Made by a program: the position numbers and the translations under genes. A stretch of 64,000 bases of DNA from Carcharhinus longimanus. Its lineage: Eukaryota. Every line of letters begins with the position of its first letter. The first letter of the stretch is position 1. The notes beneath the pieces are model-generated. The model had not been told where the DNA came from and searched no databases. It saw only the letters and a program-made list of their open reading frames with translations. Location: NCBI GenBank assembly GCA_030264375.1, contig JASCQW010000032.1, positions 61,585,942 through 61,649,941 of the forward strand, in the 5' to 3' direction. Shown here one piece after another: positions 1 through 31,129 of the stretch.

Positions 1-350
1 TCTATAGTTCCCACTGCCTCGGCAAAGCAGCCAGCATAATTAAAGATCCCACGCACCACGGACATTCTCTCTTCCATCTTCTTCCATCGAGAAAACGATA
101 TAAAAGTCTGAGGTCACATACCAACCGACACAAGAACAACTTCTTCCCTGCTGCCATCAGACTTTTGAATGGACCTACCCTGCTTTAGATTGATCTTTCT
201 CCACATCCTAGCCATGACTGTAACATTAAGTTCTGCACTGTCTTATTTCCTTTTCTATGAACAGCATGCTTTGTCTATACAGCATGCAAGAAACAATACT
301 ATTTACTGTATGTTAATACATGTGACAATAATAAATCAAACCAAATCAAA
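1..350 (+). mobile_element. Rex1/Babar non-LTR retrotransposon, 3' end (RT C-terminus plus 3' UTR)
   Basis: Translates as YSSHCLGKAASIIKDPTHHGHSLFHLLPSRKRYKSLRSHTNRHKNNFFPAAIRLLN, the typical Rex1/Babar C-terminus. Ends in ...tacatgtgacaataataaatcaaaccaaatcaaa. Near-identical to 14550-15072. Confidence 0.85.
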
Positions 351-13300: not shown

Positions 13301-14261
13301 TGTTTCAGTGCATTAGATAATATTTATTGCCTCGAAGCAAACCATTCAACCCTAAGTTCCATGATAGTGTTCATGCTTCACTTAAACATCCTCCACCATC
13401 ACTCATCTAATTTGTTGTTGTAATAATTCATTGATTTCTGATGAGTTGAGTCACCCTCATGCCTGCGTGATTTTGGCGGGGGGTGGAGAGACAGGTGGTG
13501 ACCTGTTACTTGAGTGGTGTGGGAAGGAAGCCCCATCTTTGCTGTTGAGTTATATGCTTCATCCCTGATCAGTGAGGGTTTCCCGAGATGTGCACCTTTA
13601 TGATGTGCTCGTTTGCACCTTGTTACTCCCACCTGACAGACTCTGCCAGTGCCAACGGGAAACAGTCTCGTTTTCCCGCTGGTGTGGGCACTTAGCCTGA
13701 AAAAGGGTGAACTCCACCTGTAGTCAAGTATCTCACTTTTATCTCCGTAATCTTGAATGCGTAATCTTAAAGTCTAATTACTCACATTCTGAATTGGCTT
13801 GAGATTTATCACACACTCCACTGTGTCTCTCAGAGTCAAATGAGTGGCGGACTCAGAGTATGGCAGATTTTCCCCACATACTTTAGTTTGCTAGATCTTA
13901 GCCAGACATTTTATTGGCACCTAAGAATTATGAATCATTATGACAAATATCAATCAGATTAAAGGACCAGCATTTTCATCTGCATTTTAACATAATTGTA
14001 AATGTTGCCAAAAAGCAGAATTCTTATAACCAGAAGAATTTTGCAATTCTCCCTCATTTTACTCATTAGAAATTGTCATTTGTATCTTGAATGTCTTCTG
14101 TCAGGTGGAATTTGATGTCCTTCTTCCTGGAGATTTGGGTGCTAGGGGCTGGCAGTGTATATCTCACTGCCTTCCTGCTGCAATCCTAATTAAATCTGAG
14201 ACATTTCTCCTCCACTATCAATTGAGACCCTAAGTAGGCACTTAATTAAGTTTTAATTAAG

Positions 14262-15072
14262 AGCTTCAAGTTCTTTCGAGTCCAGATCTCCAACAATCTG
14301 CCCTGATCTCTATAAGCGGATGCTATAGTTAAGAAAGACAACCAACACTTCTGCTTTCTCAGGAGGCTAAGGAAAATTGGCATGTCCACTACAATTCACA
14401 CCAATTTCTACAGGTACACCATAGAAAGCATTCACTCTGGTTGTTTCACAGCTTGGTATGGCTCCTGCTCTGTCCAAGATGCAATAAATTACAAAGTGTC
14501 ATGGTCAAACCCCAGTCCATCACTCAAACCAGCCTCTCATCTATTGACACTATCTACACTTCCTGCTGCCTCAGAAAAGCAGCCAGCATGATCAAGGACC
14601 TCACACACTCCATACATACTCCCTTCCACCTTCTTCCATTGGGAAAAAGATACAAAAGTCTGAGGACATGTATCAACCAACTCAAAACCAACTTCTTCCC
14701 TGCTGTCATCAGACTTTTGAATGGACCTACCTCACATTNNNNNNNNNNNNNNNNNNNNNNNNNNNNNNNNNNNNNNNNNNNNNNNNNNNNNNNNNNNNNN
14801 NNNNNNNNNNNNNNNNNNNNNNNNNNNNNNNNNNNNNNAGGACATGTATCAACCAACTCAAAAACAACTTCTTCCCTGCTGTCATCAGACTTTTGAATGG
14901 ACCTACCTCACATTAAGTTGATTTTTCTTGACACCCTATCTATGTCTGTAACATACAGTCTGCACTCTCGCCTTTCGTTCCTAATGTATGATATGCTTTG
15001 CGTGTATAGCGCACAAGAAACAATACTTTTCACTGTAAACTAATACACGTGACAATACATCAAACCAAATCA
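14262..15072 (+). mobile_element. Rex1/Babar LINE, 5'-truncated
   Basis: FKFFRVQISNNL...IVKK...FLRRLRKIGMS...TNFYRYTIESI..CFTAWYG...CLRKAASMIKD...LLPLGKRYKSLRT...FFPAVIRLLN. Same 3' tail as 1-350. Split by a 100-N gap with duplicated flanks. Confidence 0.9.
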
Positions 15073-27937: not shown

Positions 27938-28245
27938 GCAGTGGTATAGTGGTTAGCACTGCTGCCTCACAATGCCTGGGACCCTGGTTCGATTCCCGGT
28001 TTGGGTCCCTGCCTGTTCGGAGTCTGCATGTTCTCTTTGTGTCAGTGTGAGTTTCATCTGGATGCTCCAGTTTCTCCCACAGTCCGAAAGATGTGCTGGT
28101 TAGGTGCACTGGCCATGCTAAATTCTCCCCCAGTGTACCCAAACAGTCACCAGAGTATGGTGACTAGGGGACTTTCACAGTAACCTTGTAGCACTGTTAA
28201 TTTAAGCTTACTTGTGACACTAATAAGTAAAAGTAAACTAAAAAA
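27938..28245 (+). mobile_element. HE1-headed SINE with alternative (Rex1/Babar-like) tail
   Basis: HE1 head and body up to ggccatgctaaattc, then cagtgtaccc...tttcacagta...tacttgtgacactaataa in place of the CR1 tail. Confidence 0.85.
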
Positions 28246-30550: not shown

Positions 30551-31129
30551 GGGTTGCACGGTGGCACAGTAGTTAGCACTGCTGCCTCACAGCGCCAGGC
30601 ATCTGGGTTTGATTCCCGGCTTGGGGCACTGTCTGTGCGAAGTCTGCACGTTCTCCCCGTGTCTGCGTGGGTTTCCTNNNNNNNNNNNNNNNNNNNNNNN
30701 NNNNNNNNNNNNNNNNNNNNNNNNNNNNNNNNNNNNNNNNNNNNNNNNNNNNNNNNNNNNNNNNNNNNNNNNNNNNNCTCTGGGGGCTCTAGTTTCCTCC
30801 CACAGTCAGTAGTCTCTCAACACCAGGTTAAAGTCCAACAGGTTTATTTGTTAGCACGAGCTTTCAGATGCTCGTGCTACCAAATAAACCTGTTGGACTT
30901 TAACCTGGTGTTGTGAGACTACTTATTATGTCTGCCACAGTCCAACACCGGCAACTCCACATCCTGCCTCCCACAGTCCGAAAGACATGTTGGTTAGGTG
31001 CATTGGCCATGCTAAATCCTTCCTCAGTGTACCCAAGCAGGCGCTGGAATGTGGCGACTACGGGATTTTCACAGTAGCTTCATTGCAATTTAATGTAAGC
31101 CTTACTTGTAACACTATTAAATAAACTTT
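30551..31129 (+). mobile_element. HE1-headed SINE with alternative tail, second copy (contains gap and Penelope-like insert)
   Basis: gcacggtggcacagtagttagcactg...; tail cagtgtaccc...ttttcacagtagcttcattgc...tacttgtaacactattaaataaac. Confidence 0.85.
30808..30966 (+). mobile_element. Palindromic mini-Penelope insertion
   Basis: 54-bp inverted arms (30808-30861 and 30870-30923, 52 of 54 match), 8-nt spacer, end cagtccaacaccggcaactccacatc, 12-bp TSD CCTCCCACAGTC (30796-807 and 30967-978). Confidence 0.85.

What the first reader, a model, noticed from the sequence alone, without database searches (positions are those of the whole stretch)
27938..28245. Tail-swapped HE1 SINE carrying a Rex1/Babar-like 3' stem-loop with a compensatory base pair
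Seen: two SINE copies (27938-28245, 30551-31129) have the HE1 tRNA head and body but, after ggccatgctaaat, replace the CR1/HER1 tail with a different one. Its end, TCAC-A-GTA...TAC-T-(T)-GTGACACTAATAA (28175-28226), parallels the ends of both Rex1/Babar copies in this window: TCAC-T-GTA...TAC-A-(C)-GTGACAATA (15030-15056) and TTAC-T-GTA...TAC-A-(T)-GTGACAATAATAA (303-333). The stem and single bulge are the same, with an A-T versus T-A swap at one paired position. An extra hairpin gtcacca/tggtgac lies upstream. Established: stringent LINEs recognise 3' stem-loops, and SINEs borrow LINE tails. Inference: one SINE head is mobilised by two unrelated LINE clades (CR1 and Rex1/Babar). I cannot say whether this subfamily is already catalogued.
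Basis: partly seen in the sequence, partly recalled or inferred. Interest (0 to 1): 0.7.

Follow-up and report, generated by a model that had tools for sequence, protein, structure and literature searches.

The report
Shark SINE with Rex1-type tail
A very common short repeat in this genome (likely a shark) shares its front part with another repeat family but ends in a different tail that matches the end of a Rex1-type retrotransposon, whose enzyme likely copies it; tail swaps of this kind are already known in other repeats.

Summary
The feature is real and genome-wide. The focal copy belongs to a SINE family (S) of roughly 2x10^5 copies (extrapolated from 68 hits in 0.8 Mb; 20,642 exact motif hits). 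S keeps the HE1-type tRNA head and V body to window 28136, then has its own ~100-nt tail. The tail end matches the dominant Rex1/Babar-type LINE 3' end at 30 of 34 bases in two blocks (0 of 5000 shuffles); after S itself, the 10 best non-S matches in 0.7 Mb are all Rex ends. Both can form the same 8-bp bulged stem, and the two have similar ages.

Corrections: S replaces the 6-nt Rex loop with a 26-nt second helix. The A-T/T-A swap is one fixed difference between families, with no covariation among copies. The perfect upstream hairpin is private to this copy. Rex1 and CR1 are not unrelated clades. No LINE carrying the exact S tail was found. Mobilisation by Rex1 is inferred, not shown.

Verdict: an ordinary kind of event (SINE tail swap) giving a V-SINE/Rex1 pairing that I did not find in seven paper searches; Repbase, Dfam and SINEBase could not be checked.

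The parts
27938..28136 (+). tRNA-derived head plus central (V-type) body, shared with the HE1-type copies
   Evidence: the two class consensuses differ at 15 substitutions and one indel over about 200 nt; names HE1 and V are recalled
27942..27952 (+). Pol III A box (decayed in this copy)
   Evidence: sequence; consensus
27986..27996 (+). Pol III B box
   Evidence: sequence
28137..28171 (+). 5' part of the replaced tail, origin unknown; holds the hairpin 28146-28164, perfect only in this copy
   Evidence: found in no other family of the 0.7-Mb sample
28172..28182 (+). Rex-like block 1 and 5' arm of the lower stem (A at 28179 where Rex has T)
28183..28208 (+). 26-nt SINE-specific segment in place of the 6-nt Rex loop; predicted to form a second helix of 8 pairs in the consensus
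28209..28240 (+). 3' arm of the lower stem with bulge, Rex-like block 2 and A-rich short-repeat end
30551..31129 (+). second copy of the same family, broken by an assembly gap (30678-30777) and a 156-nt insert (30808-30963)
1..350 (+). 3' end of a dominant-family Rex1/Babar-type LINE (ORF end, 3' UTR, stem 303-325, pentamer repeats)
14260..15070 (+). 5'-truncated, frameshifted dominant-family Rex1/Babar-type LINE copy; stem 15030-15052; start approximate
   Evidence: (PF09004, E 1.5e-6)

Best explanation
This is a copy of an abundant SINE family that keeps the HE1-type head and body but carries a different tail, likely taken from a Rex1/Babar-type LINE whose protein likely copies it. One master element likely gained the tail once, probably by template switching (inferred). 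Pol III would transcribe it from the A and B boxes; the Rex1-type ORF protein would bind the lower bulged stem and its flanks and prime reverse transcription at the A-rich end. The partner is most likely the dominant family of this genome, which would mean that recognition rests on the lower stem, bulge and flanks and tolerates a different loop. Shown: the family, its tail, the two-block match, separate head lineage, similar ages, 5'-truncated copies. Predicted: the folds. Inferred: origin, partner and recognition.
For: In 80 position-chosen 10-kb stretches (698 kb without N), 54 of 182 heads reaching their 3' end carry this tail, 112 the HE1-type tail, 16 neither. Two blocks, 30 of 34 bases, 0 of 5000 shuffles. 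Exhaustive scan: apart from S copies (two more truncated ones scored 26), all 10 hits scoring 19 or more are Rex-type ends, background at most 18, HE1-type tails at most 15. Both consensuses fold the 8-bp bulged stem at minimum energy; the only two differences in the 16 stem bases fall on one pair and keep it (about 1 in 45 by my rough reckoning). Rex loop positions differ among copies (0.30, 0.74, 0.65 identity, 23 copies) while stem positions stay at 0.83-1.0. Non-CpG distance to consensus 0.082 (58 S tails) and 0.096 (25 Rex UTRs). Heads alone separate 33 S from 64 HE1-type copies with one change (support 71/77, weak). Other Rex-type families in the assembly end in longer hairpins before a similar motif. 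Stem-loop recognition by stringent LINEs and a needed bulge: PMC4176376 abstract, PMC1636434 abstract and introduction.
Against: The match is short (34 nt), split by a 20-nt difference, and weaker without the A-rich end (56 of 5000); the S-tail profile did not hit any Rex end at E<0.001. No within-family covariation and RNAalifold predicts no pairs on either alignment. The TT in the SINE's 3' arm allows a second register in which the changed base is the bulge, and the minimum-energy fold uses that register. In L2 elements the loop gives specificity, and here the loops and the terminal repeat units differ. The adjacency test was not specific: Rex end followed by a truncated S tail 9, by a truncated HE1-type tail 6. 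The Rex1/Babar label rests on domain order and recall, not on a tree with named references.
Confidence: 0.62

Rival explanations
1. The tail came from, and was copied by, a sister Rex1-type lineage with a long hairpin that is now lost or rare; the dominant family is only a relative.
For: Loop and terminal repeat differ from the dominant family; other Rex-type families have long hairpins; loop-specific recognition in L2.
Against: Five searches for the tail or stem behind non-SINE upstream DNA showed no recurring LINE upstream in the 100 rows listed of 276, 225, 121, 1035 and 159 hits (read by eye); 0 of 68 sampled tails sit on a LINE. A LINE able to make about 2x10^5 SINE copies should have left copies of the same age.
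Confidence: 0.22
2. The Rex-derived end is a passenger; the SINE is copied by HER1/CR1 or another LINE with loose recognition.
For: S and HE1-type heads have the same divergence (0.105 vs 0.112, p=0.26); neither class shows target-site duplications, so insertion marks do not tell the partners apart.
Against: No similarity to the HE1-type tail (850 of 2000 shuffles score as well); the stem is kept through a paired change; stringent LINEs recognise their own tail strictly.
Confidence: 0.11
3. The likeness is chance or convergence of two AT-rich hairpin ends.
For: p is only about 0.01 without the A-rich end; the comparison was chosen after seeing it.
Against: Match lies at the very 3' end of both elements, in order, and outranks all background in 0.7 Mb.
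Confidence: 0.05

Closest known systems
HE1 SINE / HER1 (CR1) LINE pair of sharks and rays
   Same: tRNA head and central body nearly identical to the HE1-type copies in this genome; listed as a V-SINE with HER1 tail in PMC3747384 Table 1 (passage).
   Different: Whole tail after 28136 replaced; separate head lineage. The original HE1 and V-SINE papers were not held, so subfamilies described there could not be checked.
Tail-swapped members of SINE superfamilies (V-SINEs DANA, Lun1, SINE2-1_XT, BivaV-SINEs; MetaSINEs; CmiSINE/SacSINE1-CM)
   Same: Same body with tails from different LINEs, compensatory changes in the stem between SINE and LINE, template switching proposed (PMC4824008, PMC5499810, passages).
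   Different: Partners named there are CR1, L2, LfR1 or unknown; none of the passages seen names Rex1 for a V-SINE.
SINEs with Rex1-clade tails: SINE2-5_NV / Rex1-24_NV; salmonid HpaI, SlmI, OS-SINE1 / RSg-1
   Same: Listed as SINE/LINE pairs in PMC3747384 Table 1; that RSg-1 is Rex1-clade is recalled.
   Different: Other bodies (CORE, Deu or unassigned) and hosts; here the shared part is split by a SINE-specific second helix.
UnaL2/UnaSINE and ZfL2 3' stem-loop recognition
   Same: About 60-nt tail, bulged stem, terminal short repeats.
   Different: There the loop gives specificity and mobilisation is shown by assay; here the loop differs between SINE and LINE and varies within the LINE.

Membership tests
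HE1 SINE (strict sense) | 3' tail nearly identical to the HER1/CR1 tail | tested here: not met
   no similarity to the in-genome HE1-type tail; so a sister family, not HE1 itself
HE1 SINE (strict sense) | tRNA-derived head with A and B boxes | tested here: met
   ARAGORN calls no intact tRNA in the window
V-SINE superfamily | central V domain of about 80 bp | tested here: inconclusive
   body shared with HE1-type copies, but no published V consensus was on hand; the label is recalled
Rex1/Babar (partner LINE) | AP endonuclease and RT in one ORF | tested here: inconclusive
   RT linked upstream of dominant-type 3' ends, 42-53% identical in L144 to an intact EN-RT-PF09004 ORF; the EN was not seen on a dominant-family copy
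Rex1/Babar (partner LINE) | conserved 3' UTR followed by an oligonucleotide repeat (PMC6274825 passage) | tested here: met
Rex1/Babar (partner LINE) | RT groups with named Rex1/Babar elements | not testable with these tools
   no named reference was on hand; PF09004 as a Rex1/Babar marker is recalled
Stringent SINE/LINE pair | shared 3' end sequence | tested here: met
   30 of 34 bases in two blocks; shorter and more split than textbook pairs
Stringent SINE/LINE pair | shared stem-loop backed by covariation | tested here: inconclusive
   one between-family paired change; none within families
Stringent SINE/LINE pair | overlapping period of activity | tested here: met
   0.082 vs 0.096; HE1-type heads are as old too, so this does not single out Rex1
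Stringent SINE/LINE pair | mobilisation in trans by the LINE protein | not testable with these tools
   needs a cell assay

The most novel reading that the evidence does not exclude
An uncatalogued elasmobranch V-SINE of about 2x10^5 copies outnumbers and hijacks the dominant Rex1/Babar LINE while keeping only its lower stem, bulge and flanks and replacing the loop by a 26-nt helix: a natural loop-swap showing that Rex1 proteins read their tail without the loop, unlike L2, with two sister SINEs amplifying side by side on CR1 and Rex1.
Probability: 0.3. Interest if true: 0.6.

Novelty: new member of a known kind. Interest (0 to 1): 0.36.

Why it matters
About a third of the V-type SINE copies with an assigned tail here (54 of 166) carry this tail, so shark repeat annotation that knows only HE1/HER1 misnames a large family. 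If the partner is confirmed, it gives a V-SINE/Rex1 pair and a ready set of natural variants for asking what a Rex1 protein recognises; I found no such test for Rex1 in the searches run. The kind of event, a tail swap, is established.

Tried and rejected
Covariation among copies: none above shuffles (S: 2 pairs with double change, 352 of 500 shuffles as high; Rex: 1 pair, 288 of 500); RNAalifold gave no pairs. LINE with the exact S tail: five negative-upstream pattern searches, 100 rows seen of 276, 225, 121, 1035 and 159; none found; the filters miss a LINE that has the excluded letters by chance. PF09004 search: 30 loci of 150 scored, of 34,972 candidates, showed the dominant family, one older family and seven small contigs (ends of several not held); none of the ends seen has the S tail (output partly cut; 49). 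Target-site duplications: longest repeats in 31 S and 62 HE1-type copies like shuffled pairs. Rex-S adjacency as a sign of shared machinery: 9 (Rex then S), 6 (Rex then HE1-type), 2 (HE1-type then S) against roughly 2 expected each by my estimate; not S-specific, rejected. Rfam: one hit at E 0.17, below threshold. Earlier findings: nothing. One run guessed as RNA holds the tail, but contigs and a guessed label do not show transcription.

Full report
Observation. The focal copy reads TCAC-A-GTA at 28175-28182 and TAC-T-T-GTGA at 28209-28217; the LINE ends read T at the fifth place and A opposite. The host is likely an elasmobranch, from the HE1/HER1-type repeats (names recalled).

The family. 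A search with the tail gave 4550 candidates, 40 scored, 85-89% identical apart from the window itself; 29 other loci align over the whole tail behind a whole or partial head (output partly cut). A pattern of both stem arms with a long loop has 20,642 exact hits, with a short loop 20,382, and 0 reversed. In 80 stretches of 10 kb chosen by position on large contigs (698,333 bases without N) profiles found 68 S tails, 33 Rex UTRs, 194 HE1-type tails and 205 heads; of 182 heads that reach their 3' end, 54 go on into the S tail, 112 into the HE1-type tail and 16 into neither. Extrapolated, S has about 2x10^5 copies. The 14 tails without a head hit are truncated, gap-flanked or tandem S copies. Runs of four other coded organisms from four studies hold 5,181 to 153,055 contigs on the tail and its junction with the body (4 of 24 listed runs laid), so the family is not private to this assembly.

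Anatomy. Consensuses of 33 full S and 64 full HE1-type copies agree to position 200 (window 28136) and then part. A tree of the heads alone splits S from HE1-type with one change, weakly supported (71/77; 32 of 33 S at 91/80), and head divergence is the same (0.105 vs 0.112, p=0.26). So one master lineage gained the tail, and both classes spread at about the same time. The first 35 nt of the tail have no match elsewhere in the sample. No target-site duplications stand out in either class.

The LINE. The window copies end an ORF with a PF09004 hit, follow with a conserved UTR of about 150 nt, the stem and a pentamer repeat. Dominant-type ends lie downstream of RT matches to an intact EN-RT-PF09004 ORF. 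This fits Rex1 as described in PMC6274825 (passages); the clade name itself is recalled and was not tested by a tree.

Is the likeness real? Two blocks match at 10 of 11 and 20 of 23 bases; 0 of 5000 shuffles reach the score, 56 of 5000 without the A-rich end; an ordinary whole-consensus alignment gives 11 of 2000 and the HE1-type tail 850 of 2000. Scanning both strands of the sample with the last 61 nt, every non-S hit scoring 19 or more (10 of 10) is a Rex-type end, and background stops at 18. Both consensuses fold the 8-bp bulged stem; S extends it by a second helix. Loop positions vary among Rex copies while stem positions do not. Against: no covariation within either family; in the first 100 listed hits S has A-T 98, A.A 2, T-A 0 and Rex has T-A 96, T.T 3, A.A 1, A-T 0. 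The swap is thus a single historical event, and the TT allows another register, which the minimum-energy fold prefers. The focal copy itself has decayed and folds otherwise.

Which partner? Five searches for the tail behind non-SINE DNA and a look at 30 PF09004 loci found no LINE with the S tail. S tails and dominant Rex UTRs are about equally old. Adjacency of Rex ends and truncated S tails is matched by HE1-type tails and tells nothing. I therefore take the dominant Rex1-type family as the likely partner (0.62), a lost sister lineage next (0.22). The step from shared tail to mobilisation rests on work with L2 elements (PMC1636434 abstract and introduction; PMC4176376 abstract), where the loop gives specificity; that is the main tension with this reading and also what makes it worth testing.

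What is known. PMC3747384 Table 1 (passage) lists HE1 with HER1, other V-SINEs with CR1, L2 and LfR1 tails, and SINEs with RSg-1 and Rex1-24_NV tails. PMC4824008 and PMC5499810 (passages) describe tail swaps, compensatory changes and template switching. PMC13343379 (passages) places Rex1 in the CR1 group, with low support, and reports high Rex1 cover in rays. PMC10468316 (passages) added only HE1 and SacSINE1 as known shark SINEs in 2023. PMC6887750, PMC5786205 and PMC5804259 (passages) showed no such element. Seven searches (listings) found no report of this pairing. Ogiwara 1999 and 2002 were not held, supplements were not opened, and Repbase, Dfam and SINEBase were out of reach; so abundant a family may well be in them without a named partner.

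Verdict. Real, abundant, likely Rex1-driven; a new member of a known kind. Interest 0.36.

Noticed in passing
L292 (G000:C1226), L293 (G000:C945); also L133, L153: Small contigs with Rex-type elements unlike the dominant family; two have intact 1027- and 1037-aa EN-RT-PF09004 frames, and none of the four holds the shark-type repeats profiled. Possibly foreign DNA or recent horizontal transfer.
   Followed up: partly
L143 / L294 (G000:C27:44.83 Mb): An older, decayed Rex-type family on a large contig with a different, longer terminal hairpin.
   Followed up: partly
alignment A1; loci L295-L314: S has subfamilies: a 24-nt deletion at the end of the body, a 1-nt insertion at the junction, and a 2-nt shorter end in 19 of 54 sampled tails.
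   Followed up: partly
window 30808-30963: A 156-nt partly palindromic insert inside the second SINE copy, flanked by a 12-bp duplication (30796-30807, 30967-30978); recalled as a Penelope-like shark repeat, untested.
   Followed up: no
window 14664-14738 and 14839-14914: A 75-nt duplication on both sides of a 100-N gap in the LINE copy, likely an assembly artefact.
   Followed up: no
L271-L279, L282-L287: Rex ends are followed directly by truncated SINE tails of both classes about 3-5 times more often than my chance estimate.
   Followed up: partly
L089 and two further rows: Truncated S tails preceded by an inverted S tail (3 of 100 rows, by eye).
   Followed up: no
window 28052-28127: Weak Rfam match (RFPL3-AS1_1, E 0.17) over the central body; chance, or a link through the V domain in mammalian MER6 (PMC6887750 passages).
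   Followed up: no
L236:3200-5100: HE1-type copies with tandem repeats of the last part of the body.
   Followed up: no
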